Shown here: positions 1,732 through 19,723 of the stretch, one piece after another
How the letters are laid out: each line of letters opens with the position of its first letter
Position numbering within the stretch: the first letter of the stretch is position 1
Origin: a virus
Lineage: Duplodnaviria; Heunggongvirae; Uroviricota; Caudoviricetes
Virus record (IMG/VR): IMGVR_UViG_2698536518_000010
Direction: 5' to 3' (one strand)
DNA length: 20,335 nt
Notes under the pieces: model-generated
The model's database searches: none
Told to the model about the DNA's origin: nothing
Seen by the model: the letters and a program-made list of their open reading frames with translations, nothing else
Program-made: the position numbers and the translations under genes

Positions 1732-2420
1732 TATAAAACTACCTCACTAGATTTAGGAAATGAAGATAGCACTTCTTTTCTTATCTTATGACGAACAATA
1801 TTGGAATTAATTATCATACCCAAAACAACCTCAGCCAGACCTATGAACCTCTCCCAATCTTCACTTTCAAAAGTGAACTTATTAGGCAAATCAGTTTCAA
1901 ATGAGGTTATTTTTCCATGAACGATATCACTTAATTGTCCATAAATTTTCTGTGCTCTTCTCATATCAATAACACATACTTTCCCTCCTATCTTCTCATT
2001 TTCTGTGAAGTAGTCTATATAGCCTTGATTTGTTATATGCTTCAACATATCACTGAAACTTAAGTCTTCATCATGATTTTTCCAAGAATATACAACATGA
2101 GGCATATCCCAAAGATAAATAGATGCGACACCTAGTTCCAAAACTCTCCTTAGAACAATATTAGCTGGTTTATCTATGGCACAGGCAGAAAGATATAAAG
2201 AAGATGACGTATCAGCAATAATCTCACTAAAAATTTTAATACAAACATCATGATGAACTGATGTTTTCTTTTTATTCAAAATTTCAGCAATCGTGTTAAG
2301 AGTGAAAATTGAGATAATTACTTTATCTAATTTTTTATCTTGTATGCCCTGCCATTCACGAAAGTTACTATTGAACTTATCGCTTAGCATATTAATTATC
2401 TCAGTAGGTGATTTGTTCAT
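1731..2420 (-). CDS. Hypothetical 229-aa protein, upstream partner of the NTPase (possible effector); no recognisable motif
   Basis: 229-aa ORF with stop overlapping the NTPase start by 1 nt (translational coupling). AT-rich. Preceded by AT-rich intergenic region 2421-2520 with AAGGGA upstream of the ATG. Confidence 0.65.
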   Translation of the reverse strand: MNKSPTEIINMLSDKFNSNFREWQGIQDKKLDKVIISIFTLNTIAEILNKKKTSVHHDVCIKIFSEIIADTSSSLYLSACAIDKPANIVLRRVLELGVASIYLWDMPHVVYSWKNHDEDLSFSDMLKHITNQGYIDYFTENEKIGGKVCVIDMRRAQKIYGQLSDIVHGKITSFETDLPNKFTFESEDWERFIGLAEVVLGMIINSNIVRHKIRKEVLSSFPKSSEVVL

Positions 2421-3244: not shown

Positions 3245-3769
3245 TTAATGACCTGTTTTTTCCCATGCAGCCAGGGCGTTTAGTCCGGCTTCGCTCCAGT
3301 TATCCAGCTCGTCAGGACAAGCATCAGCCACATAACAGACCTCACGTCGCAGCGTACCAATCACCAGTTCGGCATTCTGCCTGAGATCATATTGCTCGAA
3401 ATAAAACTCAGCATCGCCGTCATCCATCCAAATCCCGCCATCATCAAGAAATTGCACTTCCCAGTCTAATTCCCCGGCTGCATCCAGCACACGTTGCTGT
3501 ATGTCGTCGTCCGTTACTGGCGCAGGGATTTTACCGTCTCTGGCCTTAACTGCTTTCCAGAACTCGCCCCACGTCATTTCCAGCGTTCTTTCTGGCCACA
3601 TTTCAGAAACGGTGTCTTTCCCCTGTGCCGGTGGGCTGTTCCGCTGCTCTGTCGCCTCCACATCAATTTTTTTGCCAGACATGATCACTTCGCCTTTCTC
3701 GATCCAGTCGTAAACTGTCTGGCGGCTTACGCCTTTGTATTTGGCGTATTCGGCTTTACTCATCAACAT
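3245..3769 (-). CDS. HTH (excisionase/MerR-like HTH_17-type) DNA-binding protein with acidic C-terminal region
   Basis: ORF track gives 3245-3787. GAGGTGA Shine-Dalgarno precedes the internal ATG at 3769 (MLMSKAEYAKYKGVSRQTVYDWIEKGE). The VSRQTVYDWI motif resembles the AlpA/Xis-type HTH. Confidence 0.55.
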   Translation of the reverse strand: MLMSKAEYAKYKGVSRQTVYDWIEKGEVIMSGKKIDVEATEQRNSPPAQGKDTVSEMWPERTLEMTWGEFWKAVKARDGKIPAPVTDDDIQQRVLDAAGELDWEVQFLDDGGIWMDDGDAEFYFEQYDLRQNAELVIGTLRREVCYVADACPDELDNWSEAGLNALAAWEKTGH

Positions 3770-3868
3770 GTAACTCACCTCATGCATATACGATAAAAAA
3801 TAATTTCATGCGAAAAGGGAATGCGTTGTGGGTATGGAGGAAAGGGGCAATAACCGCCCCTTACTGAT

Positions 3869-4141
3869 TCAGTTGCGCCAGGATGGCTGGCTAAGCGTGG
3901 TTTTCATTACATCATTGACGACCTGCTTTACGATTTCTGTGTTGGCAGTCGTGCTTTCAACATCAACAAAGCCATAATCGCCAATTTCCACCGTCAGGGA
4001 TTCCAGTTTCTTCCCCAGTGCATCAGGCAACTCTCCACTGAACCGGTGCCGAAGATTTTCCACCAGCAAAGCCCTGAATGCCTCGCTGTTCTCTTTTTTC
4101 TGCCATAGCTGGCGTTTATCCACACTGATATTTAATTTCAC
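3869..4141 (-). CDS. Hypothetical protein (90 aa), GTG start
   Basis: ORF with GTG start overlapping the TGA of the upstream small frame (GTGA at 4138-4141). No recognisable domain. Confidence 0.45.
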   Translation of the reverse strand: MKLNISVDKRQLWQKKENSEAFRALLVENLRHRFSGELPDALGKKLESLTVEIGDYGFVDVESTTANTEIVKQVVNDVMKTTLSQPSWRN

Positions 4142-4305
4142 AGCCTCACCTCTTTAAGTGCCTTATCCATCAGTTGCCGGGCAATAACATGAATCGACGG
4201 TGCCACACCAAGCACAGATTTCTGACGCTTTTCGGCCTGGATACGTTACAGGGCTTCGATCTGCCCCCGGGAAAGTAAAACTGGCTTTACTCCGTGATTT
4301 TTCAT
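4138..4305 (-). pseudogene. Small frame (55 codons) interrupted by an in-frame TAA at codon 20 (plus-strand tta at 4246-4248)
   Basis: ATG at 4305-4303. Translation MKNHGVKPVLLSRGQIEAL-stop-RIQAEKRQKSVLGVAPSIHVIARQLMDKALKEVRL, then TGA overlapping the GTG of the 90-aa gene. Confidence 0.3.
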
Positions 4306-4544
4306 GATGATCCCTTCTGAATGACAATAATTGCAATAAATGAAACAAAAAGCATCAATAAACCAACCTTCGGCACTAAATGCTCTGATTTTTCTGCAAA
4401 GGTATGGTAGATGTTGCTGCATGCAAACATAAAGGAAATAGCAGAAGAAACAGCGGGGAGTGAAAAGGGGAAGTTTTTATAAATACACGATTGTCGCCTC
4501 ACTGCAGGTTAACAGCCACAAACCCCATGATAATAACTTGTTAA

Positions 4545-4868
4545 TTATTTCATCAGATTTTTCATTATTTGCGCGATTGAGTACACAAGCAAAAACTCGG
4601 CAGCCGCAAGAGTATAAAAAACATAGATTCGCTTAGCCCACCGACGATGAAAGAACTCCTCAGCATGACCGAATGTTCGAGATACAAGCCATGCACCTAC
4701 TGCACACAGAGCAGGTGCAATGAGCACAGTTATAAACCAGATTGTGATACCCATCCCATGCCTACTGATAATAGCCATTGGTATTGCAAAAATGAATGTT
4801 AGAGCAGCATTAGCTAATAGAATATCTTTTAAAGTATTTTCAATTAGTTTTTCTAGATTATCTTTCAT
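4545..4868 (-). CDS. Small hydrophobic membrane protein (107 aa, 2-3 predicted TM helices)
   Basis: ORF with hydrophobic stretches (LLANAALTFIFAIPMAII, ITIWFITVLIAPALCAVGAWLV). A G7 tract (4874-4880, minus strand) acts as Shine-Dalgarno 5 nt upstream of the ATG. Confidence 0.55.
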   Translation of the reverse strand: MKDNLEKLIENTLKDILLANAALTFIFAIPMAIISRHGMGITIWFITVLIAPALCAVGAWLVSRTFGHAEEFFHRRWAKRIYVFYTLAAAEFLLVYSIAQIMKNLMK

Positions 4869-4887
4869 CTAATCCCCCCCGTTGAAC

Positions 4888-4920
4888 ATTAATATATAAA
4901 AGCCCCTTACTAAGGGGCTT
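4888..4920 (-). terminator. Rho-independent terminator after the lipoprotein gene
   Basis: 8-bp stem AGCCCCTT/AAGGGGCT (4901-4908 and 4913-4920) with 4-nt loop, followed on the minus strand by a U/A-rich tract (TTATATATT). Confidence 0.5.
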
Positions 4921-4932
4921 TGCACGGATTGT

Positions 4933-6075
4933 TTAAAGGGAACTTTTTTTCGCCCCTTCAATTTCTGCCTGACAAATTTCGTCATTTGTAAATGAGTACT
5001 GCAGATAGACATATCCCTGAGTGGAATTGTTCGCTCTGGCCTCAATAGAGATAGTATCGATATTGTTTTTTAATGGTATTTCTTTTGTTCCCTTCCATGT
5101 GGCAGATAAGAAGCGTTCTTTTTTGTTTAGCCCCCTCATCCAGTCCTGAGGATCTTTCCAAATTGAACCAGCCAGCAAAAAGTCTGTAGTATCAGCCTTT
5201 CCATACAGAGAACTTAAAGAATTACTCAATTCTTCAAACTTGGATTTAAGAGCCAATCCATAGCTATCAGTATCAATATTTTTTCCTAAAGCCCGTATTT
5301 GACATAAACCAGCTTTCGGGGAGATCAGCAAACCATACATTTCAAAATCTGCGTTTTGCTTCGGTAATTTATCAGAAGTATACAGATTCACACTGTCTGG
5401 TAGTGGCTTGAGCTTAGCACCGATCATATCTTCGATGTTTTTCTGTGTAAGACCGGCTTCTAAGCCAAACGGACCATCCGCTGGCGGGAGTAAAGGAAGT
5501 TGCTCTTGGGAATTTTTGGCTGTTACTTCCGTTTCAGTACTGTTTTTTGCGTCATTAGCTTGTACTGATGCCAGCTTAACTTCAGCGAGGCCATACTTGG
5601 CTGTGAGGTACTTTTGCTGCAACATTGCCATGGTCTGCTCTTCAGTGGCAACAGTAGATAATTTTAGTACCTTTATCAGACCACCACTATACTGACGAGC
5701 ATCAGCTTTGGCTTCGTTGATTTTTGCATCTAAGCTGTCAATTTCAGTTTTAATTGAAGCCGCAAGCTCAGGATCAGGTTTTACTCCAGATACAACAACA
5801 TCAATTTTGGCACCTGATTCAATAGCATTAATACGCTGTTCCAAAAGCGCTTTATTAGTTCCTAATATTTCCAGTCTTGCTGTTGTCAGATTTTTTATCA
5901 ACCCACCAGAAAACTGCTGGTCAACTTCCTTAGCTGCTGATATTTCACCTTCCGTTTGCGACAGTTCAGCTTTAAGAGCCGCTACTTCCTGTTTCTGTTC
6001 TGGAGTTAACTCTTCTGGCCCACATCCGGTTAACATTACTATACCGACTAATGTTGCAATTAAAGTTTTATTCAT
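4933..6075 (-). CDS. Lipoprotein (380 aa) with internal repeat motif, function unknown
   Basis: N-terminal signal peptide with lipobox LTGC (MNKTLIATLVGIVMLTGC). Two copies of an xSGGLIKxL-containing segment. Coiled-coil-like composition. Confidence 0.8.
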   Translation of the reverse strand: MNKTLIATLVGIVMLTGCGPEELTPEQKQEVAALKAELSQTEGEISAAKEVDQQFSGGLIKNLTTARLEILGTNKALLEQRINAIESGAKIDVVVSGVKPDPELAASIKTEIDSLDAKINEAKADARQYSGGLIKVLKLSTVATEEQTMAMLQQKYLTAKYGLAEVKLASVQANDAKNSTETEVTAKNSQEQLPLLPPADGPFGLEAGLTQKNIEDMIGAKLKPLPDSVNLYTSDKLPKQNADFEMYGLLISPKAGLCQIRALGKNIDTDSYGLALKSKFEELSNSLSSLYGKADTTDFLLAGSIWKDPQDWMRGLNKKERFLSATWKGTKEIPLKNNIDTISIEARANNSTQGYVYLQYSFTNDEICQAEIEGAKKSSL

Positions 6076-7407: not shown

Positions 7408-9213
7408 TTATGTTCTGTCGTTAATCCCTGTAGCTGCTGGCAACCAGCCATCAGCATCATCATCTAACAGAACATTTGTTATCACTCGCCCTTTATCCGG
7501 GCCTTTAGTGCATTTAGCCCGCTTATACTCCTTTCCGTATTCCGCCATAGCTCCTGGCATATCAGTACCAAAGCGTGTCAGTGATACTGGTTTTCCCAGG
7601 CCATGCGCTGACATATAGGCTAAATAAGCATGATACAGGTATCGCCTCGGGCTAAATGGCACTATTTCCGCATTGCCCACCATCATTCCTTCACATTTAA
7701 CCAACGACATCAGATAGCCGCAAAAGTCCACCAGTGAATCACCTTCGCGCTTTATCAACAGCGCTTCTTCTGATTTTTGCTGCTCATAAAGTAGTCTTTT
7801 AGCTTCGTCCTGGTCGGTAAATCGTGTTAGCAAATGGCGAATCACTACCGCCAGTTCGCCTTCTATCTTTTCCGCCAGCATGGGATCGCGTTCGTTCTCC
7901 GGTACGACCTCAGAGAAATTAAATATCACCCTACGACGCGAGATCCCCCCGCTTCGGTCACTGAATGACATGGCGTTATTGTTTACCGCAAGCACTACTG
8001 CCGGAATACGTGTGGAGTAGGGGGCTTTATGTTTCGGATCAATTGCCACCTTGTCGCCGCCAGTAATTGCCTTAATTCCTGCACCATCGCCAGCGTAGCG
8101 AGTCATATCCGGCATGATAATCAGCGAAAAGCCAACTACTAACGCGCGTTCCCTTGCGTCTTCCAGAGCCTTCATGCTTGCCGATACTGTGTTGGCCTTA
8201 CCCGCCAGCATGGTACAAATCTCCGCCATCACACTTTTACCGCTTCCGCCCGGCCCCGTTACCTCAAGGAATAACTGCCAGTCGTACCGGTTCGCCAGTA
8301 CCATGAATAATGCCGCCAGTACGCGATCCGCTTTACGAGCATTATCCGCCACCGAACGACGCAACCACTTCCAGAAATTCGGCGCATGTGTTGCCAGCGT
8401 TTCCCCCTCTTCTGGCGGGCTGAACGGTAATTCACTGGCATTTAACAACCAGTCATTTTTGTTGTGTTCCCGAAAATTTCCTGTCCTGATATCAAAAACA
8501 CCGTTACTGAACCCAATAAGATTTCTGTCCGCTCCCCCCATAACAGGTAGACTCAATTTCATTGTCTCTACGGCAAATTTAATGGCGTTTTGCGAATAAC
8601 TAATTTCGGCATCAATAAAAATCTTCGCCATAGACCGCTGGAGTTCCTTATCAGATACAGGCTCCCAAACAATTCCGTTGTAATGGTGAACTACATCAGA
8701 ATCATCATTTATCGCCAGTGCTCCTCCATAATGTTCAAGTAACACTTCCCCTCTCTGGCTGGCTCCCATCTGATTTAATGCAGGCTTGGGTAGACCACTA
8801 TTTTTTGTAGCTAATTTCATCACTGAAACTTCCCCGTGCTCAGCCTGTTCGCGGATCCGTTGCAGGTAGTCGCGCCAGTTCTCCGGTTCCTGGTCGGTGA
8901 TACCTTTGTATAATTTCGCCTCCTGTACGCCAGCCAGCGCCAGCTTTTCAGCGATAGTATTGATCTGGATTGGCTCTATCTCCCCCGCGATATAGACACG
9001 CGCAAAACGGCGTTTCTCGTCAATAATGCGGATATTCGCCAGGTCTGCCAGTTGCTTTGGCCCCAGGTAAACAGGAGGCACGTTATCGCCGTGTTTTCGT
9101 CCTTCACTTTCAATCCAGTGTTGAGCATGGGCGTAAGCATCCGTCCCGGCAAAAATGATTACCTCAGTGAATTTATCCTTCGGCTGATATTTTAGACTCG
9201 GTGCGTTTTTCAC
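7408..9213 (-). CDS. Replicative primase/helicase, P4 alpha-like (SF3 helicase P-loop GPGGSGKS)
   Basis: 601-aa ORF. Walker A VTGPGGSGKSV and Walker B-like LIIMPDM. Start overlaps upstream gene (ATGA). Followed by the iteron region. Confidence 0.85.
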   Translation of the reverse strand: MKNAPSLKYQPKDKFTEVIIFAGTDAYAHAQHWIESEGRKHGDNVPPVYLGPKQLADLANIRIIDEKRRFARVYIAGEIEPIQINTIAEKLALAGVQEAKLYKGITDQEPENWRDYLQRIREQAEHGEVSVMKLATKNSGLPKPALNQMGASQRGEVLLEHYGGALAINDDSDVVHHYNGIVWEPVSDKELQRSMAKIFIDAEISYSQNAIKFAVETMKLSLPVMGGADRNLIGFSNGVFDIRTGNFREHNKNDWLLNASELPFSPPEEGETLATHAPNFWKWLRRSVADNARKADRVLAALFMVLANRYDWQLFLEVTGPGGSGKSVMAEICTMLAGKANTVSASMKALEDARERALVVGFSLIIMPDMTRYAGDGAGIKAITGGDKVAIDPKHKAPYSTRIPAVVLAVNNNAMSFSDRSGGISRRRVIFNFSEVVPENERDPMLAEKIEGELAVVIRHLLTRFTDQDEAKRLLYEQQKSEEALLIKREGDSLVDFCGYLMSLVKCEGMMVGNAEIVPFSPRRYLYHAYLAYMSAHGLGKPVSLTRFGTDMPGAMAEYGKEYKRAKCTKGPDKGRVITNVLLDDDADGWLPAATGINDRT

Positions 9214-10289: not shown

Positions 10290-10506
10290 GGTGCACCTCC
10301 TGCACATCAGCCATGATAATTTTTCCGGCCTTATCCAGTGCCTGATCGGCTTTTAGCTGCACAAATGCTAAATAATGGGAGATGCATTCTGATTCTCTGG
10401 CTGCGTGTTTATGCGCCACACCAGCGATAGCAGAAATCTCAATAAGTGAATCCATCAGCGTTTTGATAGCGTCTACCGCTGCATCAGGCCATGTTGCATT
10501 ACACAT
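10282..10506 (-). CDS. Hypothetical protein (74 aa)
   Basis: ORF with ATGTGTAA start/stop overlap with the upstream 67-aa gene. Confidence 0.4.
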   Translation of the reverse strand: MCNATWPDAAVDAIKTLMDSLIEISAIAGVAHKHAARESECISHYLAFVQLKADQALDKAGKIIMADVQEVHHA

Positions 10507-10702
10507 GTTCCACCTCCTGGCGAATACGGGCTGCGAATACCATCACGCAGCCATCAGGAGATTGCTGGCGTGCTTCCTGTTCGCTGGTGGCCTCGATGTG
10601 AATTACGCGCGGTTGTGCCGTGCTCAGGGCGATAAAACGCCAGATGTATTTATTCAGGTTGTGCGAGTCCCGCCCTTGCGGGTGTGTGGTATGATTTCTC
10701 AT
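10499..10702 (-). CDS. Hypothetical protein (67 aa), first gene of the leftward operon
   Basis: C-terminal part of the 435-codon ORF-track frame. ATG at 10702 preceded by GAGGT Shine-Dalgarno. Lies just downstream of the operator cluster. Confidence 0.45.
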   Translation of the reverse strand: MRNHTTHPQGRDSHNLNKYIWRFIALSTAQPRVIHIEATSEQEARQQSPDGCVMVFAARIRQEVEHV

Positions 10703-10798
10703 AGCTACCTCGATACTCTTGCTATCGTTGGTGGTTAGACGCCCTGCATGTGTGCCACCACTGCGGGGCGTTGTCGTTTCTGCACCTTGCATCAACAA

Positions 10799-10853
10799 GG
10801 TGTTGAACACCAATTTAAGCCTAGGTGTTAAACACGTCAAGTGTTGAACACTT
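10799..10853. promoter_or_regulatory. Three copies of an 11-bp perfect palindrome GTGTT(G/A)AACAC (10800-10810, 10825-10835, 10841-10851); candidate operator cluster in a divergent promoter region
   Basis: Read directly. Third copy overlaps a TTGAAC -35-like hexamer with CATACT 17 bp downstream. Sits between the leftward operon and the rightward small RHH gene. Confidence 0.6.
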
Positions 10854-10901
10854 ATTTTTTTTCCTGCATACTGCATTTGTTTTTTGTAAGGGGTACACAA
10901 C

Positions 10902-11081
10902 ATGGCGACAAAAGCAGTAAACGCAAAATCACAAACAGTTGCGGCAAGGGTTCCGCATGAAGTTATGAACAATGTTGAGGCGGTAAAAATGCCTGGTGAA
11001 AGTACAGGGCAGTTTGTAACAGCAGCATTAAAGCGAGAAGTTGAATACCGCCAGCGCCGCAAGGCCAAAGAACAGGAGTAA
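10902..11081 (+). CDS. Ribbon-helix-helix (Arc/CopG-like) small DNA-binding protein, 59 aa (below ORF-track cutoff)
   Basis: ATG at 10902 with AAGGGG upstream. Translation MATKAVNAKSQTVAARVPHEVMNNVEAVKMPGESTGQFVTAALKREVEYRQRRKAKEQE fits a beta-strand/helix/helix pattern. Confidence 0.45.
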   Translation: MATKAVNAKSQTVAARVPHEVMNNVEAVKMPGESTGQFVTAALKREVEYRQRRKAKEQE

Positions 11082-11798
11082 CCATCACCAGCGCCGTGGT
11101 GTGAGGAACTACGGTGCATCGTTTTACAGGGCTGCGCCATGACCAACAAAGAATCAACCAATACACCATCACCGGCACGGAAAAGACAGCGCAGAAAGAT
11201 AGCGTACGAGCATGAGTCAAACAGATTCGCGCCCTGTGCGTTTATCCTTGAGAAATTCCTTAAAGAGTACAGGCGCACAAAAATGGGGTCGCATACCTGG
11301 AAAACATCGCGGCATGGCAATGTTAAAGAGCAGGAATAGCCCACCAGCAAGCCAGCATATTCACCATAATGACCCTCAGTTAAACATAGAGTCATTGGTG
11401 CAAAGCTGACACATTGCCCACCAGCCGCAAATCTGGCATTGTTGGCGATGCGTTCAAGTATGTAGCTTTCCCACTGGCGGCCCTCTGCGGTCGCCTTTGT
11501 TTTATCCAGAACGAAATCAGACATCAGATTGATCAGCACCTGGCGACCTGACAAAATCGCATCAGTCGCGCCACCAGCAAAATTTTTTGCTTTCCGGACA
11601 GTGTGACCAACGACATTTTGCAGCAAAATATTCTGCATTTCTGGCGTGCTGTAGTAACGGTGATCAGCGCCTTCACTCTGTGCGACCACAACGCTATAAT
11701 CTGCCTCGTAGACAGTAAGCAATATGGCGCAGTAGGCTATTCGTTCACAAAGGCGCTCCGGCAACGGGGCGCTTTCTCTTTTTGTAACGGTCAGAGCG

Positions 11799-12599
11799 TT
11801 ACACATGGCTGTTTTCCTCCATGCGACGGGCTAACCAACGCTGCGAAAGACGAATTAATTCAGCCTTCCGCTGGTGGTAGTCCTGGCCTAACTCAATCAG
11901 CGTGATATTGCTCTGCTCAAGGTAAGAAAGGTGCTCAAGCTGCAACGTGCTCATGTGGTCGCGTGGTTCGCCTGTAATGCCGTTCGCCAGTGCCCACTGT
12001 TTTGCAGTCATGCCACCCAGTACGATACGCGCCAGCATGTTCGCTTCCGTGGTGTAGTGGTGCTGGAGTGTGTTTTTACCCAGTTCAGCCCGGTACGCCT
12101 CCAGCGCGGCACACATTGGCTTAAAGTAGCTGGCAACTGTGATACGGGCTTTCAGTTCCCGGCGTAACGCTGCGGAACGAACAGGCGCAACCTTGTGTAG
12201 CTCCTCCTCGCATTTGATAAAGTACTGGCGAACGGCGCGGCCCTGTTCGGTACGTTCGACCATCGCCAGTTCTTTCGCCATGTTCACTGTGATGATGTAC
12301 TCAAGAGCGGTTTGCTGGCGAGATTTTGCGCTCACCGGATCGGGTCGGCTCAAATATTCAACAACCTCATAATCCACGCCTTCCGTGAACCCGTATTCTT
12401 CAATGCGCCCCTTGATCCACGAACGGAAAACGCGCCCTACACCTAACGCCTTATGTAACGCTCTGGCGCTAACAATAGTGGTTTCACTCCCGCCAATAAC
12501 GCCGGAAATAATCGGGATAATTTCGCCGAAATTTTGCAGATTCTGGTTTTCAGGCCGAACGAAGCCCCGCCCCTGTACGGGCGTTTTTGGAAATTTCAT
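11799..12599 (-). CDS. Phage antirepressor-like protein (ANT/KilAC-type motif)
   Basis: 266-aa ORF. Segment ITVNMAKELAMVERTEQGRAVRQYFI resembles the conserved antirepressor core as I recall it. Confidence 0.6.
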   Translation of the reverse strand: MKFPKTPVQGRGFVRPENQNLQNFGEIIPIISGVIGGSETTIVSARALHKALGVGRVFRSWIKGRIEEYGFTEGVDYEVVEYLSRPDPVSAKSRQQTALEYIITVNMAKELAMVERTEQGRAVRQYFIKCEEELHKVAPVRSAALRRELKARITVASYFKPMCAALEAYRAELGKNTLQHHYTTEANMLARIVLGGMTAKQWALANGITGEPRDHMSTLQLEHLSYLEQSNITLIELGQDYHQRKAELIRLSQRWLARRMEENSHV

Positions 12600-12676: not shown

Positions 12677-12874
12677 TCAGGTAGCTGTTCCGCGTGATTC
12701 CGCAATACGCTGATTAATCCACTCGTCAATTTCACTCTCAACGAAAGCAATAGCTCGCGAGCCAATTTTAACTGATGCAGGAAATTTACCTTGCCCCATA
12801 AGGCGATAAATCCATGCCTTGCTATATCCAGTTCTACGCTGAACTTCTGTTAAACGAATAAGCGTATTTGACAT
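12677..12874 (-). CDS. alpA: AlpA/Vis-family transcriptional regulator / excisionase-like protein
   Basis: 65-aa ORF MSNTLIRLTEVQRRTGYSKAWIYRLMGQGKFPASVKIGSRAIAFVESEIDEWI, typical AlpA-type HTH. Located two genes from the integrase. Confidence 0.85.
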   Translation of the reverse strand: MSNTLIRLTEVQRRTGYSKAWIYRLMGQGKFPASVKIGSRAIAFVESEIDEWINQRIAESRGTAT

Positions 12875-12943
12875 ATATTTACCTCATAACGTCTACTCAA
12901 TTTGACGAGGTAATCCTGGCACAGAAATAACGAATATTTTCAT

Positions 12944-13086
12944 ACCCTCAGGCCTAATGGTTACCGGAAGGAAATTAACCCTAAGGGTGATGGTAATCGG
13001 GAGGAAATCTACCCTAAGGGTGATGGTAAAATTGACGGGGAAGATAAAAAAATACCCTCAGGGTAACAGTAAATCACCCTCAGGGT
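12944..13086. promoter_or_regulatory. Repeated palindrome ACCCT(A/C)AGGGT (12978-12988, 13011-13021, 13054-13064, 13076-13086, plus half-site near 12944-12952) upstream of alpA
   Basis: Read directly. First two copies are followed by GATGGTAA. Lies between the stop of the 267-aa gene and the alpA start. Confidence 0.55.
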
Positions 13087-13101
13087 ATGCGGTATGGTGC
13101 G

Positions 13102-13905
13102 TTAATCCGGCTTTGCGTTCTTTTGGCTGTTGTCTCGGTTAATAGGGCAGGCAGTCCTCTCTATGAGCGTTGCAAGTGCATTACTTGCCCCCCACTGCTT
13201 AAGCTCCCTGGTTATCGCTTCTTGATTTCCCCTAGTGGCAAAATCATTTTCTGGATCGTAATTGGCCCACTCTCTGTTTCTAATCTCAATAGCCTTAGCT
13301 AATGGGTCTTTATCCCAGTATTTATATAAGTGTATCGGGCGCTCTTGCTCTAACTGCTCTATCCTTGCCCTTAACTCTGCGTTTTCTTTTTCCAGCATTG
13401 CGATTTGGGATAATAAATCATCCTCTGTACGCAACTCTTTCTTTTCAATATCGCGTCCTTGTGCCTCGTCATTTTCAGAAGAGTTAGCGCCTTCCAGCTT
13501 CGTTAACGCGTCAAGGACATCGGGAAAAATTGCGAAAATTTCACCCCTTATAAATCCAATGTTCTCAAATTCGGGATCTTCCCAATAACCGGACACCAGA
13601 AAACCATTTTCATCCCTCTCACCAGGTAAACAACCACGTTTCCGAACCGCATTCAGATTTCTATAAAGAACATCATAATCAAATTCATCCCGATACGGGT
13701 TACAAAAAGATTCCAACAGCTTAAATTCATTTACTGTGTACAGGCGGATATGTTCTCCGCTTATTCTCCTGAGTATCCAAGTTATGACATCTGAAACATC
13801 ATAATCATCACCAGCGACCTTAAGCACGACCTCAAGAAATTCACGTAAAGAAATAAAATCTTTTTTGTATTCGTTTAATTCGGCATGAATATCAATCATA
13901 CGCAC
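13102..13905 (-). CDS. Hypothetical 267-aa protein with coiled-coil segment, between integrase and alpA
   Basis: ORF with heptad-like stretch LLSQIAMLEKENAELRARIEQLEQE. AT-richer than neighbours. No recognisable catalytic motif. Confidence 0.65.
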   Translation of the reverse strand: MRMIDIHAELNEYKKDFISLREFLEVVLKVAGDDYDVSDVITWILRRISGEHIRLYTVNEFKLLESFCNPYRDEFDYDVLYRNLNAVRKRGCLPGERDENGFLVSGYWEDPEFENIGFIRGEIFAIFPDVLDALTKLEGANSSENDEAQGRDIEKKELRTEDDLLSQIAMLEKENAELRARIEQLEQERPIHLYKYWDKDPLAKAIEIRNREWANYDPENDFATRGNQEAITRELKQWGASNALATLIERTACPINRDNSQKNAKPD

Positions 13906-14027
13906 ACCTCAGCGTCCTCTACTGTAGTGGCTGTACCAGTCCGTCGAGGTGTACGGATTTTCGGGAGCGACCCTAGACACAGCCTTTTCTTTCGTCGCTC
14001 AAAGTCTACTACTGTATACGCAACCAG

Positions 14028-15242
14028 TCATCCACATTTTCCGAACTTGCCATGCACCACGTTACCGCCATGTTCGAGCGAATCCATATAGTCGGCGTAC
14101 CACTGGAGCATCTCGCGCCGCCCGTCCAGATATTGCGCATGATTGTACGTGCCACGAATTGAGTTCTTATCAACGTGTGCAAGCTGCGTTTCTATCCACG
14201 CGGTGTTATAGCCCTGCTCATGTAAAATCGTGCTCATGGTGTGCCGGAATCCATGACCAGTAACCTTTCCGTTATAGCCGATGCGTTTAAATACTTGGTT
14301 TATGCTAGCCTCGCTCATTGTTTTCCTTGGATCATTACGGCCGGGAAACATAAGCGGATAATTACCAGTTAATTCTTTAATCTGCCCAATAAGAGAAAGA
14401 GCCTGCTTAGACAAAGGCACCACATGAGGGCGACGCATTTTCATCCGTGAAGCAGGTATCTCCCAGATAGCCTTGTTGAGATCGATTTCATCCCATAATG
14501 CACCGCGCAGTTCGCCAGTTCGCAAACCAGTGATAATCAGTAGACGAGCCGCCATAACAACCAATGCACTTCCTGAGTAACTGGACAATGCCTTGAAAAA
14601 ATCAGGCAATTCTTTGGCTGTGAGGAAAGGATAATGATTAGATTCATGGCCTTGCATCGCGCTAGTAAGATCTGGGGCAGGGTTATACTCTGCGCGACCA
14701 GTGACTATTGCATAGCGGAAAACTTCCCCGCACCGCTGCCTCACTTTTTTGGCTTTTTCTGTAGCACCGCGCCCCTCGATGCGTCGCAGCACATTCAGAA
14801 GTTCAAGTGGTTTGATTTCGGCGATTGGTTTTTTGCCAATGTAAGGGAACACATCTTTGTTGAAGGCTTCGAGGATATCTGAAGCATAACCAGCAGACCA
14901 TTTTTTTAATTTGCTGCTGTGCCACTCAAGGGCAATATCTTTGAAGGTATTGTTTAACTGCGTTTCCCGGGCAATCTTTTCCTCTCGTTTCGCTTCCATC
15001 GGATCGATACCCCCAGCGATACCCCTTTTAGCTTCTTCACGTTTTGCACGAGCATCAGCCAAGGTAACTTCAGGATACACACCTAGTGCTAACAGCTTCT
15101 CTTTACCAGCTACACGATATTTAAAGCGCCAGTATTTTCCTCCACTAGGTTTTACCAGGAGATACAGACCACCACCATCAGCCAGCTTGTAAGCCTTCTC
15201 TTTTGGCTTGGCAGTGTCTATTTGACGGGCATTGAGTTTCAC
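14028..15242 (-). CDS. int: Tyrosine recombinase, P4-type integrase
   Basis: 404-aa ORF with GTG start preceded by GGAGGT. Catalytic signature residues (RTGELR, HGFRHT, SIRGTYNHAQY). Adjacent to the tRNA 3' fragment. Confidence 0.9.
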   Translation of the reverse strand: MKLNARQIDTAKPKEKAYKLADGGGLYLLVKPSGGKYWRFKYRVAGKEKLLALGVYPEVTLADARAKREEAKRGIAGGIDPMEAKREEKIARETQLNNTFKDIALEWHSSKLKKWSAGYASDILEAFNKDVFPYIGKKPIAEIKPLELLNVLRRIEGRGATEKAKKVRQRCGEVFRYAIVTGRAEYNPAPDLTSAMQGHESNHYPFLTAKELPDFFKALSSYSGSALVVMAARLLIITGLRTGELRGALWDEIDLNKAIWEIPASRMKMRRPHVVPLSKQALSLIGQIKELTGNYPLMFPGRNDPRKTMSEASINQVFKRIGYNGKVTGHGFRHTMSTILHEQGYNTAWIETQLAHVDKNSIRGTYNHAQYLDGRREMLQWYADYMDSLEHGGNVVHGKFGKCG

Positions 15243-15408: not shown

Positions 15409-15454
15409 TGGTGCCGATAATAGGAGTCGAACCTACGACCTTCGCATTACGAAT
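15409..15454 (-). tRNA. 3' fragment (about 46 nt, anticodon loop to CCA) of tRNA-Thr(CGU); att core repeat, not a complete tRNA
   Basis: Minus strand reads ATTCGTAATGCGAAGGTCGTAGGTTCGACTCCTATTATCGGCACCA. The 5' half (acceptor and D arms) is absent, since the upstream sequence cannot pair with the TATCGGC acceptor strand. Confidence 0.6.
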
Positions 15455-15811
15455 TATAAGAATCCGCTTCTAATTCAAAGTATTACCCCATCAACACTGC
15501 GCTCACACGTCCCACCACATCAAAACATGTAAAGCCTTGCAAGCCATTGTGAGGCCTTATGTGTCTCAGTTTTGTCCCACCTTGTATTATGACTTGCATA
15601 GCCAATGAAGATAAAGGTGACGACAAACAGCGCAGCAGTCTTCTTTTCTTTCACACTTTCCCCAATCAGCATACATAGCAGTCCTAGAGACAGTGGCGTA
15701 AAGTCATGGATGATCGGTGGAAGGAGGCGCTAATCCTTTCATACAAAAAATATGTAAAATCAATAACGGCTGTAAATCATTCAATACTCGCCCTATCGGA
15801 AGTTCACCAGC

Positions 15812-16030: not shown

Positions 16031-16106
16031 CCCTTAAGTTCCTAGCCGCTTATCTATAACTATGGAAAAATGTTAACCCTGACTGTATGCTAACAAAGGG
16101 ATGTAT

Positions 16107-17315
16107 ATGTCGGTTTTTCATAACTGGCTGCTTGATATCGCAAGCGGGAATTACTTTATCTACATCAAACGCCTTTCTGCAAACGACACTGGCGCAACAG
16201 GTGGCCATCAGGTCGGACTTTATATCCCCTCAAATATCGTTGAAAAGCTTTTTCCATCTATCAATCATACTCGCGAACTGAACCCTTCAGTCTTCCTTAC
16301 TGCGCATGTATCATCCCATGATTGCCCTGATACCCAAGCACGCGCAATTTATTACAACAACCGTTATTTTGGTAAGACCCGAAACGAAAAAAGAATTACG
16401 CGCTGGGGGAGAGGAAGTCCATTACAGAACCCTGAAAATACAGGAGCTCTCACAATTCTTGCTTTCAGGTTAAACGAACAGAACACTGACTGTTCCGAGG
16501 TAGATATATGGGTCTGCGTCAATCCCGATGAAGAGGATATCATCGAGTCTGCTATTGGCGAAATCATACCTGGAACCCTAATTTCCGGCCCTGCCGGACA
16601 AATTTTGGGCGGATTATCTCTTCAGCAAACTCCAGTAAATCATAAATATGTTATTCCTGAAGACTGGAAGAAGCGTTTTCCTTCTGGAAACGAAATTATT
16701 CAATATGCTGCTGGCCATTATGCTAAAAACTCCAAGGATCCAGATGAGCAACTGATTGACCGTCGGCGTGTCGAGTATGATATTTTTCTACTCGTCGAGG
16801 AATTACATGTTCTTGATATTATTAAGAAAGGATTCGATTCTGTAGATGAGTTTATTGCATTAGCCAACTCTGTCAGTAATCGACGTAAATCAAGGGCAGG
16901 CAAATCACTTGAACTTCACCTAGAGAAGCTTTTTATCGAGCACGGACTACGGCATTTCTCCACTCAGGCAGTTACTGAAGGTAATAAAAAACCAGATTTC
17001 CTGTTTCCTTCAGCAGAGGCATATCATAACGTTGAATTTCCTGTAGAAAACTTACGTATGCTGGCAGTAAAGACCACCTGCAAAGATCGCTGGCGTCAGA
17101 TACTGAATGAAGCAGATAAAATCCATCAGGTACATTTATTTACACTGCAAGAAGGTGTTTCTTCAGCACAATACCGAGAAATGAAAGATGCGGGTGTCAG
17201 ACTCGTTGTACCATCAACTTTACATAAAAAATACCCAGAAGCAGTTAGAGAAGAATTAATAACGCTCGGAGCATTCATTACTGAGCTGATAGAGCTTTAC
17301 GCTGAACTATCATAG
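16107..17315 (+). CDS. Type II restriction endonuclease, EcoRII family (expected CCWGG specificity)
   Basis: Protein closely resembles EcoRII as I recall it across its length (MSVFHNWLLDI..., RLSANDTGATGGHQVGLYIP, ...KTTCKDRWRQILNEADKIHQVHLFTLQEG). AAAGGG Shine-Dalgarno supports the ATG at 16107 over the ORF-track 16101. Confidence 0.85.
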   Translation: MSVFHNWLLDIASGNYFIYIKRLSANDTGATGGHQVGLYIPSNIVEKLFPSINHTRELNPSVFLTAHVSSHDCPDTQARAIYYNNRYFGKTRNEKRITRWGRGSPLQNPENTGALTILAFRLNEQNTDCSEVDIWVCVNPDEEDIIESAIGEIIPGTLISGPAGQILGGLSLQQTPVNHKYVIPEDWKKRFPSGNEIIQYAAGHYAKNSKDPDEQLIDRRRVEYDIFLLVEELHVLDIIKKGFDSVDEFIALANSVSNRRKSRAGKSLELHLEKLFIEHGLRHFSTQAVTEGNKKPDFLFPSAEAYHNVEFPVENLRMLAVKTTCKDRWRQILNEADKIHQVHLFTLQEGVSSAQYREMKDAGVRLVVPSTLHKKYPEAVREELITLGAFITELIELYAELS

Positions 17316-17349: not shown

Positions 17350-18783
17350 TCAAGGCTGCCCAGTCTTACCAGCATCAGCAGAAACAGCTTTGAGGATATA
17401 GGGTTCCAGAAGTCTGGCAACAGCTTCAAATACTGGCACCACAACTGAGTTACCGAACTGCCGATATGACTGAGTATCTGAAACCGGAATACGGAATGGT
17501 TTCCCTCCAGGTTTTTCAAATCCCATAAGGCGTGCGCACTCTCGGGGAGTCAGCCTGCGTGGTCGACGAGCCTGATTACTCTCATTCATAAAGTCAGCCT
17601 CTCCCGTTGCCATATCCCAACCACGATCAATAAGAATTTCTGATCCGTCTTTGTGATATCTGGCAGAAAGTGTGCGTGCAATGCTTTCCTTATTCTCAGG
17701 ATTGACCAACCCAAAGCCAAAACCATTCCCCTTGGCTGCATGCTTTTTGGCGTAGTTATAAAGGTACTCCCATAGTTTTGGCGTAAGTATATATTTACTG
17801 TCGACTACAGGCTCCAGCAATTCACCAAATGATGGGCGGTGTTCCGGATAAAAACGACTGATATCACGCAAGGTAAACCCCTTGTGAATATTCAGATCTC
17901 GTCTAAATCCGACCAGAACAATGCGTTCACGATGCTGAGGCAAAAAATGCTTCCCATCGATAATCTTTGGATCGTTTTTTCCCATTTCTGCAGCATCGGC
18001 AACTTCGTAGCCCAGCTCGTCAAGGGTCTCCATAATGACTTTGAAAGTTTTACCCTTATCATGGCTCTTCAGATTTTTGACATTTTCCAGCACAAAAATT
18101 GCCGGTTTTTTTGCTCGTATAATACGTGCCACGTCAAAAAAAAGTGTTCCTTGTGCTTCACATTCAAAACCATGCGCACGGCCAAGTGAGTTTTTCTTAC
18201 TAACACCAGCAAGACTAAATGGCTGGCACGGGAACCCCGCAAGAAGCACATCATGATCCGGCACATGCTCATCAATATATGCATAAGCATCCGTTTCCAA
18301 TACATCGGTTTTATCACTCAACGTGACTTCCCGAATATCGAGATTGAATTTATGCACCTGTTCATCGTTAAACCAGTTGGCCTTGTATGTACGCACAGCA
18401 TCTTTATTCCATTCACTGGTAAAAACACACTGGCCTCCAATAGCCTCAAAACCTTTTCGTATCCCTCCAATTCCAGCAAATAAGTCAATGAAGCGGAAAG
18501 CATATTCCGGATGGTTTGCAGGTGGTTCTGGTAGCATCTTACGCAGAAGAGACTCTTCTACTGACGTCAACGATTTTGGTAAACACTTGCCATTAATCCA
18601 GCGGTTAATGGTTTCACGGCTCCACTCATTTTTTCCGACTTTTCTCAGTAATTCAGCCACATACTTCTGATCATAGATTTCCAGCACTTTCTCGATAAGC
18701 TTTTTATCATTTTCCTGTCGCAGCTTTTCTTCCGCCTCGGCTTCCTTCAGCAGATGCTGTGCCAACACTTCAAATTCAGACAT
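17350..18783 (-). CDS. DNA cytosine-5 methyltransferase, Dcm/M.EcoRII family
   Basis: Motifs [10 protein letters not shown] (I), GFPCQPFS (IV), ENVKNL (VI), QFGNSV (X). High similarity by recollection to E. coli Dcm. GGAGG Shine-Dalgarno supports the ATG at 18783 (477 aa) over the ORF-track 18825. Confidence 0.9.
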
Positions 18784-19200
18784 AATTCCTCCAAGGGGTC
18801 TAATGGGTGAAACTCTATCACTCATTCAACCCAGAAGGAAATGTTTTGTCTGGATATTTAAACAGTGACTACAACGTAATCTAGCACTAGTGATGCTTTG
18901 TTAGGCATAGAGAATCATTCTATATACGACTAATGACAGAAAAACAGCAGACAAGTAGTTTGCTCATAAATTAACGCATACTACGTGCCTACGGTTTTCG
19001 AGACCGGTCCAATCATCAAACGAAACATAAAATTAATTCACACTATGAGGAAAAGTATCTTTTTTTACTATGTAAATTCAAAGGATTAGCCTCATTTACC
19101 CGATAGTTTTCTCAACACTACTGGTTGTGAGCCCTTGCAATGTTCATTAATATACGTCTCACAAATAATTCATAGATATTGCAAAATGGATATTACTGAG

Positions 19201-19518
19201 TTNNNNNNNNNNNNNNNNNNNNNNNNNNNNNNNNNNNNNNNNNNNNNNNNNNNNNNNNNNNNNNNNNNNNNNNNNNNNNNNNNNNNNNNNNNNNNNNNNN
19301 NNNNNNNNNNNNNNNNNNNNNNNNNNNNNNNNNNNNNNNNNNNNNNNNNNNNNNNNNNNNNNNNNNNNNNNNNNNNNNNNNNNNNNNNNNNNNNNNNNNN
19401 NNNNNNNNNNNNNNNNNNNNNNNNNNNNNNNNNNNNNNNNNNNNNNNNNNNNNNNNNNNNNNNNNNNNNNNNNNNNNNNNNNNNNNNNNNNNNNNNNNNN
19501 NNNNNNNNNNNNNNNNNN
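19201..19518. other. Run of 318 N (assembly gap or masked sequence)
   Basis: Read directly. ORF-track frames 19135-19536 and 19159-19524 are poly-X artefacts. Confidence 0.95.

Positions 19519-19723
<205 letters not shown>

What the first reader, a model, noticed from the sequence alone, without database searches (positions are those of the whole stretch)
13102..13905. Unknown coiled-coil protein in the integrase-proximal slot
Seen: 267-aa protein with no recognisable motif, AT-richer than flanking genes, sitting between int and alpA. Established: in P4-like elements the integrase-proximal region is a known variable hotspot for defence genes, and in SaPI-type islands the gene next to int is the master repressor. 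Inference: either a single-gene defence or abortive-infection protein, or the island repressor.
Basis: partly seen in the sequence, partly recalled or inferred. Interest (0 to 1): 0.45.

Follow-up and report, generated by a model that had tools for sequence, protein, structure and literature searches.

The report
Candidate regulator of satellite alpA switch
The unknown gene between the integrase and alpA of this E. coli phage satellite is real, and it most likely encodes a paired (leucine-zipper) DNA-binding regulator that sits on a row of evenly spaced palindromes in front of alpA, the satellite's master switch, which could supply the control element not yet identified in Gram-negative satellites.

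Summary
The ORF is real: RefSeq WP_000565286.1, probable start ATG 13899, 265 aa. It lies in a thrW-type E. coli satellite with the order int, alpA, primase. It matches no Pfam, NCBIfam, PADLOC or PHROG family, no solved structure and no phage record.

- **Synteny.** In 61 of 61 non-redundant loci the homologue is followed within 300 nt by alpA.
- **Palindromes.** The spacer holds arrays of 13-bp palindromes (TACCCTNAGGGTA) about 900-fold enriched there, with centres spaced in multiples of ~10.5 bp.
- **Controls.** Sister satellites with equally similar AlpA but an empty slot or a DUF6387 gene have no array. Slot proteins sharing this N-domain but carrying another C-module have different phased repeats.

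The arrays therefore follow the slot protein's C-module, not AlpA. Best reading (confidence ~0.45, inferred only): a dimeric sequence-specific regulator of alpA, more likely a repressor or insulator, with a variable input domain. This is analogous to SaPI Stl but not homologous to it. Defence is unsupported but not excluded. The Rfam int-alpA RNA is this gene's 5' leader.

The parts
14028..15242 (-). Tyrosine integrase (P4/thrW type), upstream and co-directional with the gene under study
   Evidence: Pfam Arm-DNA-bind_3, Phage_int_M, Phage_integrase. RefSeq WP_041329569.1 next to tRNA-Thr in strain SCU-316.
13916..13983 (-). int-alpA RNA motif (Rfam RF02996), ending 16 nt before the ATG of the gene, so it is the gene's 5' leader
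   Evidence: 45.5 bits against a gathering score of 35.8. The same motif lies 14-21 nt upstream of the slot-gene start in L003, L004, L006, L019, L021, L104, L106 and L012.
13102..13899 (-). The gene ('X'): 265 aa plus stop. The longest ORF would start at GTG 13905.
   Evidence: dN/dS.
13480..13899 (-). N-terminal domain, residues 1 to about 140: variable, acidic (pI 4.5), alpha/beta with winged-helix-like order of elements. It ends in a GF(R/K)xE(I/L) helix motif shared across slot proteins.
13342..13416 (-). Leucine zipper, residues 162-186. Heptad a = I166, N173, I180; d = L162, L169, L176, L183.
   Evidence: L169 and L183 invariant, L176 in 25/27, N173 in 19/27. A single long helix in both models. 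The PDB profile search hits only designed or GCN4-type dimeric zippers.
13135..13341 (-). Conserved C-terminal domain, residues 187-255: (E)RPIxL..DPLxLAIxIRNxEW.NYD...TRGNQxAI..EL...G....A..IE.VACPIxR. Four short helices, pI 8.1. Proposed DNA-binding module.
13075..13087 (.). Palindrome 1 (minus strand TACCCTGAGGGTG), 15 nt after the stop codon
13053..13065 (.). Palindrome 2 (TACCCTGAGGGTA), followed by T7 on the minus strand (terminator-like)
13010..13022 (.). Palindrome 3 (CACCCTTAGGGTA)
12977..12989 (.). Palindrome 4 (CACCCTTAGGGTT). Centre-to-centre spacings of sites 1-4 are 22, 43 and 33 bp.
12942..12963 (.). Promoter-proximal 'wide' imperfect palindrome (minus strand TAACCATTAGG/CCTGAGGGTAT), about 70 nt upstream of the alpA ATG. 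It is a perfect palindrome (TACCCTGAGG/CCTCAGGGTA) in locus L003.
12677..12874 (-). alpA, the satellite's master activator. It lies downstream of a homologue of the gene in 61 of 61 non-redundant loci.
   Evidence: Pfam Phage_AlpA 2.4e-19. Synteny. The role of AlpA in Gram-negative PICIs is from PMC6092414 and PMC11773190.

Best explanation
The gene encodes a modular, zipper-dimerised, sequence-specific DNA-binding regulator of the satellite's alpA switch. Two chains pair in parallel through a GCN4-like leucine zipper (residues 162-186). This places two copies of the conserved C-terminal four-helix domain (187-255) side by side. The pair recognises the 13-bp palindromes TACCCTNAGGGTA that fill the 227-bp spacer between the gene's stop codon and alpA. 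The sites are spaced in whole helical turns, so several dimers would sit on one face of the DNA and could act cooperatively. Bound there, the protein controls how much transcription reaches alpA. The more likely direction (roughly 60:40) is holding alpA off, by repressing its weak promoter or by blocking read-through from int and the gene itself. The fast-evolving, swappable N-terminal domain would be the input module, most plausibly contacted by a helper-phage protein to relieve control. Shown here: the gene, its domain structure, the invariant gene-spacer-alpA arrangement, the enrichment and phasing of the palindromes, and the fact that repeat type follows the slot protein's C-module and not AlpA. 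Inferred: DNA binding itself, which domain binds, the sign of regulation, and the sensor role of the N-domain.
For: (1) Synteny: a homologue is followed on the same strand by an AlpA-type gene within 28-294 nt in 61 of 61 non-redundant loci from Enterobacterales, Orbaceae and Pasteurellaceae. A similar integrase lies upstream in only 44 of 61. (2) Palindromes: ACCCTNAGGGT occurs 4 times in the window, all in this spacer, against 0.24 expected. The degenerate form occurs 39 times in 3.9 kb of spacers against 2 in 181 kb of flanks. Arm sequence is kept where the rest of the spacer cannot be aligned, and it drifts to TACTATNATAGTA only in Orbaceae and Pasteurellaceae. (3) Phasing: centre spacings cluster at 21-23, 31-34, 41-44 and 54-55 bp, with mean resultant 0.85 at a period of 10.5-10.8 bp. 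This is a property of duplex DNA, not of RNA hairpins. (4) Natural controls: satellites whose AlpA is 63-88% identical to those of array-bearing loci, but whose slot is empty or holds DUF6387, have no such array. AlpA identity does not partition by slot type. (5) Module swap: proteins with the same N-domain but a different C-module ('type B') occupy the same slot, and their spacers carry different phased repeats. L104 has six ACTTCCAAA repeats spaced 21/33/41/21, and L106 has ACCTACCAA. Short natural forms with little or no N-domain (104-153 aa) keep the canonical palindromes, which points to zipper plus C-domain as the DNA-linked part. (6) The zipper has the a-position Asn and d-position Leu pattern of parallel dimers, which fits twofold-symmetric sites (the GCN4 rule is established knowledge). 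(7) The C-domain is under purifying selection (dN/dS 0.2) and is mildly basic. The N-domain evolves fast (dN/dS 0.75) and is mosaic. (8) Published work says no global repressor is known for Gram-negative PICIs and that alpA is switched on by an unidentified helper signal (PMC6092414), so there is an unfilled role of this kind.
Confidence: 0.45

Rival explanations
1. Same DNA-binding regulator, opposite sign. The protein is a helper-responsive activator that recruits RNA polymerase to the weak alpA promoter from phased upstream sites, and the N-domain receives the helper signal.
For: All sites lie upstream of the last ~70 nt before alpA, where the promoter must be, and no good sigma-70 promoter is detectable. 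alpA is known to need a helper-dependent activating signal (PMC6092414 and PMC11773190). The proximal wide palindrome is at a fixed distance from alpA in many loci.
Against: Satellites with an empty slot still carry a near-identical alpA and are of the class reported to be helper-inducible, so an island-encoded activator is not required in general. Arrays of four to six phased sites that begin right after the upstream stop codon also fit a roadblock or repressosome.
Confidence: 0.2
2. The protein does not bind DNA. It works by protein-protein contacts, for example as an AlpA- or integrase-binding modulator or a helper-interference factor. The palindromes are bound by something else, or act as insulator or terminator elements that travel with the cassette.
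For: The protein is acidic and the C-domain has no recognised DNA-binding fold. One palindrome is followed by a T-run and scores as terminator-like. A conserved C-domain would also suit a conserved protein partner such as AlpA.
Against: The T-run is not conserved across loci. The 5-bp stems with 3-nt loops are weak hairpins. Single-arm changes are not compensated (TACCCTCAGAGTA, TACCGTGAGGGTA, CACCCTCATGGTG). The ~10.5-bp phasing points to protein on duplex DNA. Repeat type changes with the slot protein's C-module while AlpA stays the same, so the binder is most simply the slot protein.
Confidence: 0.15
3. A stand-alone anti-phage defence or abortive-infection protein occupying a variable cargo slot next to int.
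For: The slot content is variable (this family, type-B proteins, DUF6387, or empty). The N-domain evolves fast and is shuffled. GC content is somewhat lower than the island average. Satellites are known carriers of defence genes (PMC13586616).
Against: No PADLOC hit. There is no enzymatic, membrane or nucleotide-binding domain: the protein is a small all-helical C-module plus zipper. The strict coupling to alpA and to a cognate repeat array is not expected of cargo. The obvious low-GC cargo of this island is at the other end (window 1-2420).
Confidence: 0.1

Closest known systems
SaPI Stl / Gram-positive PICI Rpr master repressors
   Same: Encoded next to int in a phage satellite. Proposed to combine a DNA-binding module that silences the island's activation genes with a highly variable module that senses a helper-phage protein. 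Very divergent between islands (background from PMC6092414).
   Different: No sequence or fold relationship and no XRE-type HTH. The gene is co-directional with int and alpA rather than divergent from the regulated operon. The conserved part is C-terminal and the variable part N-terminal. It is not present in all related islands. Binding, repression and induction are all untested here.
GCN4/bZIP-type parallel dimeric leucine zippers
   Same: Three to four heptads with Leu at d and a buried Asn at a central a position. Best PDB sequence matches are such zippers, with weak Pfam bZIP_2 noise. The zipper is used to pair two DNA-reading units on a palindrome (inferred).
   Different: There is no basic region N-terminal to the zipper; that stretch is acidic. 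The candidate DNA-reading unit is a folded four-helix domain C-terminal to the zipper.
[quoted passage not shown]
   Same: Satellite-encoded, modular and domain-shuffled, with a regulatory role proposed (PMC10111431).
   Different: No Bro-N, KilA-N or ANT domain was detected in this protein. It sits in the 'integration zone' between int and alpA, not in the Bro zone downstream of alpA. An AntA-type gene occupies that position here (11799-12599).
DUF6387 (PF19924) proteins
   Same: Alternative occupant of the same int-alpA slot in related E. coli satellites. In L012 it is preceded by the same int-alpA RNA leader.
   Different: No detectable homology. The spacers after DUF6387 genes carry no phased repeat arrays.
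int-alpA RNA motif (Rfam RF02996)
   Same: A true match, immediately upstream of the gene.
   Different: Rfam lists it as a candidate sRNA. Here and in related loci it sits at a fixed 14-21 nt from the start codon of the slot gene and is missing from empty-slot loci, which suggests a cis-acting 5' leader.
P4 defence hotspot
   Same: A variable region adjacent to a P4-type integrase in an enterobacterial satellite.
   Different: The described hotspot is between int and psu-delta-sid (PMC13586616). This element has no Psu hit on the tested late-region ORFs, and the slot lies between int and alpA.

Membership tests
Gram-negative PICI-type satellite (context of the gene) | Co-directional int, alpA and primase genes, integrated at a tRNA or other specific site | tested here: met
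   int 14028-15242, alpA 12677-12874 and a D5_N/DUF5906 primase at 7408-9213 are all on the minus strand. The island lies at tRNA-Thr in SCU-316. A tRNA-Thr 3' remnant is at about 15411-15458.
P4-like satellite (sensu SatelliteFinder) | psu, delta and sid capsid-hijacking genes | tested here: not met
   No Psu or other P4 late-gene Pfam hit on ORFs at 3245-6075; PerC and ProQ/FinO were found instead. Only Pfam was used, so distant sid or delta could be missed.
SaPI Stl / PICI Rpr master repressor | Encoded adjacent to int | tested here: met
   128 nt downstream of int.
SaPI Stl / PICI Rpr master repressor | Divergently transcribed from the operon it represses, with operators in the divergent intergenic region | tested here: not met
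   The gene, int and alpA are all on the minus strand, and the repeats lie downstream of the gene.
SaPI Stl / PICI Rpr master repressor | Recognisable HTH (XRE/Cro-C1 type) DNA-binding domain | tested here: not met
SaPI Stl / PICI Rpr master repressor | Binds operator DNA; released by a specific helper-phage protein; deletion gives uncontrolled excision and replication | not testable with these tools
   Needs EMSA or footprinting, interaction assays and genetics.
bZIP transcription factors | Parallel dimeric leucine zipper | tested here: met
   Heptad pattern with Asn173 at an a position and Leu at d positions. Zipper hits in the PDB profile search.
bZIP transcription factors | Basic DNA-contact region immediately N-terminal to the zipper | tested here: not met
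   Residues 141-161 are acidic (linker plus zipper pI 4.4) and disordered in the model.
Known anti-phage defence systems (PADLOC-DB v2) | HMM match to a component of a known or candidate system | tested here: not met
   Zero families at E <= 0.01.
AlpA / excisionase (HTH_17) family | Pfam Phage_AlpA or HTH_17 match | tested here: not met
   No hit for this protein, while the neighbouring alpA scores 2.4e-19.
Rfam RF02996 int-alpA RNA (the leader, not the protein) | Covariance-model score above the gathering threshold | tested here: met
   45.5 bits against 35.8, covering the full-length model 1-71.

The most novel reading that the evidence does not exclude
This family and its 'type-B' cousins (same N-domains, different C-module) are the regulators not yet identified in Gram-negative phage-inducible islands. 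They would be Stl analogues built on previously undescribed DNA-binding folds. Each would hold alpA silent through a cognate phased operator array and release it when the fast-evolving N-domain is bound by a helper-phage protein. The Rfam int-alpA RNA would be their translational or transcriptional leader. Helper specificity of these satellites would then be written in the N-domain of the slot protein.
Probability: 0.25. Interest if true: 0.8.

Novelty: new variant of a known kind. Interest (0 to 1): 0.6.

Why it matters
Gram-negative phage-inducible islands are widespread, and they move virulence and defence genes. How they stay silent and how a helper phage switches on their master activator AlpA is unresolved: the 2018 founding paper states that no global repressor is known and that the inducer is unidentified (PMC6092414). 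A modular protein that always sits immediately upstream of alpA, with its own phased operator-like array and a rapidly evolving input domain, is a concrete and cheaply testable candidate for that missing layer. If confirmed, it would also define at least one new DNA-binding domain. It would re-assign the Rfam int-alpA 'sRNA' as a leader, and it would give a sequence-based handle on satellite-helper specificity. If it does not bind DNA, the strict gene-array-alpA linkage would still need an explanation.

Tried and rejected
- **Family libraries.** Pfam, NCBIfam, PADLOC and PHROGs scans gave nothing but zipper noise.
- **Phage records.** tblastn against 50,697 phage records found no match, so this is a satellite gene, not a phage gene.
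- **Solved structures by sequence.** The PDB profile search returned only coiled coils.
- **Fold searches.**
  - BFVD Foldseek gave nothing with E below 0.4.
  - The afdb50 library was unavailable.
- **Sigma-70 resemblance.** The last two helices looked by eye like sigma-70 region 4.2. hhalign aligned exactly that stretch but with probability 0.2%, so I rejected it as evidence.
- **Residue-to-base covariation.** I proposed that 'TRGNQ' tracks CCC arms. It fails, because IPSQ-type proteins L077, L080, L081 and L085 keep ACCCTNAGGGT.
- **Homology to other slot occupants.** Comparison with DUF6387 and with the 196-aa and 246-aa proteins found none for the whole protein. One short shared GF(K/R)RSEL..FPE motif appeared with the 246-aa protein. 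This led to recognising the shared N-domains and the type-B C-module.
- **Integrase arm sites, ori iterons or packaging sites.** I considered these readings of the palindromes and rejected them. The sites are 1-2 kb from the att end. They are never found elsewhere in the islands. They track the slot protein's C-module.
- **Link to the neighbouring type II R-M system.** I rejected this because loci without that system keep the palindromes.
- **SD-sequestering hairpin before alpA.** The fold is no more stable than shuffled sequence, z = 0.

Full report
**Observation**

The ORF at 13102-13905 (minus strand) exists. It is annotated in RefSeq as hypothetical protein WP_000565286.1. The start is more likely ATG 13899 (265 aa) than GTG 13905. 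A GAGG lies 7 nt upstream of the ATG, and homologues all begin MIDI/MIAI/MLDI.

The gene lies between a P4-type tyrosine integrase (14028-15242) and alpA (12677-12874), all on the minus strand. Downstream follow an AntA-like gene, small ORFs, a D5_N/DUF5906 primase, and ProQ/FinO and PerC genes. This is the int-alpA-primase order of a Gram-negative phage-inducible chromosomal island (PICI), not a P4-like element with psu-delta-sid.

In E. coli SCU-316 the identical island sits at tRNA-Thr next to proA. In the window, and in strain EC20, a tRNA-Thr 3' remnant (~15411-15458) separates it from further foreign DNA carrying a type II R-M system.

DNA matching the gene and its flanks occurs in 171 of 5426 complete E. 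coli genomes. GC content is 41.4%, against 47.3% for int, 42.9% for alpA and 46.9% for the island.

**What the protein looks like**

No Pfam or PADLOC family matches. NCBIfam and PHROGs give only sub-threshold coiled-coil noise. tblastn finds nothing in 50,697 phage records.

Homologues exist in about 122 clusters at 50% identity, and all are unnamed. Alignment shows three parts.

- **Residues 1 to ~140.** This part is variable.
- **Residues 162-186.** This is a leucine zipper with a positions I166/N173/I180 and d positions L162/L169/L176/L183. L169 and L183 are invariant, and N173 is present in 19 of 27 sequences. By the established GCN4 rule, that pattern indicates a parallel dimer.
- **Residues 187-255.** This is a strongly conserved domain, (E)RPIxL..DPLxLAIxIRNxEW.NYD..TRGNQxAI..EL...G....A..IE.VACPIxR.

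Against a 62%-identical homologue, dN/dS is 0.2 for zipper plus C-domain and 0.75 for the N-domain. Synonymous divergence also differs sharply between the two parts (1.33 against 0.33), which indicates a mosaic history. The protein is acidic overall (pI 4.7), while the C-domain has pI 8.1.

**Surroundings: the leader**

Rfam's int-alpA RNA (RF02996) matches at 13916-13983 on the minus strand, with 45.5 bits against a gathering score of 35.8. It ends 16 nt before the ATG.

The same motif lies 14-21 nt upstream of the start codon of the gene after int in many related loci. These include L003, L004, L006, L019 and L021, the type-B loci L104 and L106, and one DUF6387 locus, L012. It was not found in the two empty-slot loci. 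In these loci it behaves as the 5' leader of the slot gene.

**Surroundings: the spacer**

The 227 bp between the stop codon and alpA contain four 13-bp palindromes. These are TACCCTGAGGGTG, TACCCTGAGGGTA, CACCCTTAGGGTA and CACCCTTAGGGTT, at 13075-13087, 13053-13065, 13010-13022 and 12977-12989. A wider imperfect palindrome lies at 12942-12963.

The core ACCCTNAGGGT occurs four times in the window, all in this spacer, against 0.24 expected by chance.

**Comparative test 1: synteny**

I collected related loci from four sources: public assemblies, 185,579 species genomes, IMG/VR and E. coli genomes.

In 61 of 61 non-redundant loci the homologue is followed on the same strand by an AlpA-type gene within 28-294 nt. 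These loci come from Enterobacterales, Orbaceae and Pasteurellaceae. A similar integrase lies upstream in only 44 of 61. The constant partner is therefore alpA, not int.

**Comparative test 2: the palindromes**

The degenerate palindrome ACYMTNAKRGT occurs 39 times in 3.9 kb of gene-alpA spacers. It occurs twice in 181 kb of the remaining locus sequence.

- The arms keep their sequence where the rest of the spacer cannot be aligned.
- Single-arm changes are not compensated.
- In Orbaceae and Pasteurellaceae the motif becomes TACTATNATAGTA.
- Centre-to-centre spacings fall at 21-23, 31-34, 41-44 and 54-55 bp. The mean resultant is 0.85 at a period of 10.5-10.8 bp.

Sequence-conserved, uncompensated and helically phased palindromes indicate a protein bound to duplex DNA, not RNA hairpins. 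The loci share ancestry, so the p-values overstate independence. The pattern does recur across orders.

**Comparative test 3: who is the binder?**

Other E. coli satellites have different slot contents.

| Slot content | Loci |
|---|---|
| Empty | L013, L100 |
| DUF6387 protein | L012, L101, L102, L103, L011 |
| Other proteins (type B, below) | L010, L099 |

None of the four checked (L010-L013) has the palindrome. No phased array was found in the empty-slot or DUF6387 spacers examined (L013, L012, L101).

Their AlpA proteins are as similar to those of palindrome-bearing loci as the latter are to each other. For example, L016 (this family) against L012 (DUF6387) is 88% identical, and L014 against L104 (type B) is 85%. 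L014 against L003, both of this family, is only 69%.

The exhaustive profile search also found proteins that share this gene's N-domain but end in a different C-module, FAGKDTALxLIAGLA..GGKYxRGxKLNKSA, which I call 'type B'.

- They occupy the same int-alpA slot, and two (L104, L106) have the same RNA leader.
- Their spacers carry different phased repeats. L104 has six ACTTCCAAA-type units spaced 21/33/41/21 bp. L106 has ACCTACCAA in both orientations.
- L010 and L099 also carry type-B C-modules.

Natural short forms of this family (104-153 aa, with little or no N-domain) keep the canonical palindromes. In Raoultella the N-domain and the zipper-plus-C-domain are separate adjacent ORFs.

The repeat type thus follows the C-module of the slot protein. 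It does not follow AlpA, and it does not follow the N-domain.

**Mechanism proposed**

The simplest account is that zipper-paired C-domains read the palindromes. Several dimers would then line one face of the DNA in front of alpA and set its expression.

AlpA is the auto-activating master switch of Gram-negative PICIs. Its over-expression causes uncontrolled excision and replication. Its induction needs an unidentified helper signal, and no island repressor is known (PMC6092414; PMC11773190).

The gene is co-directional with int, and the array begins 15 nt after its stop codon. I therefore favour repression or read-through blocking over activation, roughly 60:40. No promoter could be mapped, so the sign is open.

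The fast-evolving, exchangeable N-domain is the obvious input module. A helper-phage protein as ligand is inferred by analogy with SaPI Stl and is not shown here. DNA binding itself is also inferred.

**Weaknesses**

- No known DNA-binding fold was found.
- My residue-to-base covariation idea failed.
- The protein is acidic.
- The gene is absent from many sister satellites, so at most it is one of several interchangeable regulators.

**Comparison with what is known**

Functionally the closest analogue is Stl/Rpr of Gram-positive PICIs. Membership fails on orientation, on HTH type and on homology.

The zipper is bZIP-like, but there is no basic region.

The protein is not a PADLOC-recognised defence protein. 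The described P4 defence hotspot is elsewhere, between int and psu-delta-sid (PMC13586616).

Full-text searches of the held library found no paper describing this family.

**Verdict**

I rate this a new variant of a known kind: a satellite regulatory module built from an undescribed protein family with a cognate phased operator array. Confidence in the DNA-binding-regulator reading is about 0.45. Interest is 0.6, because the finding makes the open question of Gram-negative PICI silencing and induction directly testable.

Noticed in passing
window 13916-13983 (minus); L003 5919-5986, L004 5917-5984, L006 5918-5985, L012 4779-4846, L104 2918-2986, L106 1574-1641: The Rfam 'int-alpA RNA' (RF02996, listed as a candidate sRNA) sits at a fixed 14-21 nt upstream of the start codon of whatever gene fills the int-alpA slot (this family, type-B proteins, one DUF6387). 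It was not found in the two empty-slot loci. This suggests a cis-acting 5' leader rather than a trans-acting sRNA.
   Followed up: partly
L104 3001-3753 and spacer 3754-4047; L106 1657-2376 and spacer 2377-2601; L010 3840-4430; L099 2839-3579: A second, unannotated family of slot proteins ('type B') shares N-domains with this family but ends in FAGKDTALxLIAGLA..GGKYxRGxKLNKSA. Their spacers carry different phased repeats: ACTTCCAAA, six copies at 21/33/41/21 bp, in L104, and ACCTACCAA in L106. No Pfam match.
   Followed up: partly
L015 3920-4855; L014 3989-4447; L016 3971-4432; L017 3956-4270: In Raoultella the N-domain and the zipper-plus-C-domain are two adjacent ORFs. In Kluyvera, Pantoea and Symbiopectobacterium only a 104-153 aa short form is intact, 350-430 nt downstream of the RNA leader. 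The two halves therefore appear to be separable units.
   Followed up: partly
window 13102-13899 compared with P0006 (alignment A1): About 89 central residues (RKRGCLPGERDENG...MLEKEN) are identical between this protein and P0006, while both flanks differ. Synonymous divergence also differs fourfold between N- and C-halves against L054. Both point to recombination mosaics within the gene.
   Followed up: no
window 12879-12913 (minus): The alpA leader can pair UACCUCGUC with GACGUUAUGAGGUA, burying the alpA Shine-Dalgarno. The two arms recur in many loci. However, the fold is no more stable than shuffled sequence (z = 0).
   Followed up: partly
window 1-2420 (minus): Low-GC (29-38%) cargo lies at the int-distal end of the island. 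It comprises a 5'-truncated ORC/Cdc6-like STAND-type ATPase with a zinc ribbon (over 576 aa) and a 229-aa protein with no hits. Strain EC20 has different genes at this position, so this is the island's likely variable or defence hotspot.
   Followed up: no
window 15411-15458; 16101-17315 (plus); 17350-18825 (minus): A partial tRNA-Thr 3' end (att remnant; ARAGORN calls no tRNA) lies just beyond int. It is followed by a type II restriction enzyme and a C5 cytosine methyltransferase. This suggests tandem foreign elements at thrW. In EC20 a lambdoid prophage tail region follows.
   Followed up: partly
window 19204-19519: This is a run of N (masked sequence). It explains the apparent 13% GC in the composition profile and is not a biological AT-rich tract.
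   Followed up: yes
window 10499-11806 (minus): A 435-aa ORF with no Pfam hit spans a region where RefSeq instead annotates a short Icd-like gene on the same strand, and YlcI/YnfO plus a hypothetical gene on the opposite strand. The long ORF may be spurious. Unlike most related satellites, no C4 or isrK RNA reached Rfam threshold in this island.
   Followed up: no
window 12977-13087: The palindrome core CCTNAGG equals the recognition sequence of Bsu36I/Eco81I-type restriction enzymes (from my own knowledge, not tested). A type II R-M system of unknown specificity lies 3 kb away. Palindrome-bearing loci without that system argue for coincidence.
   Followed up: no
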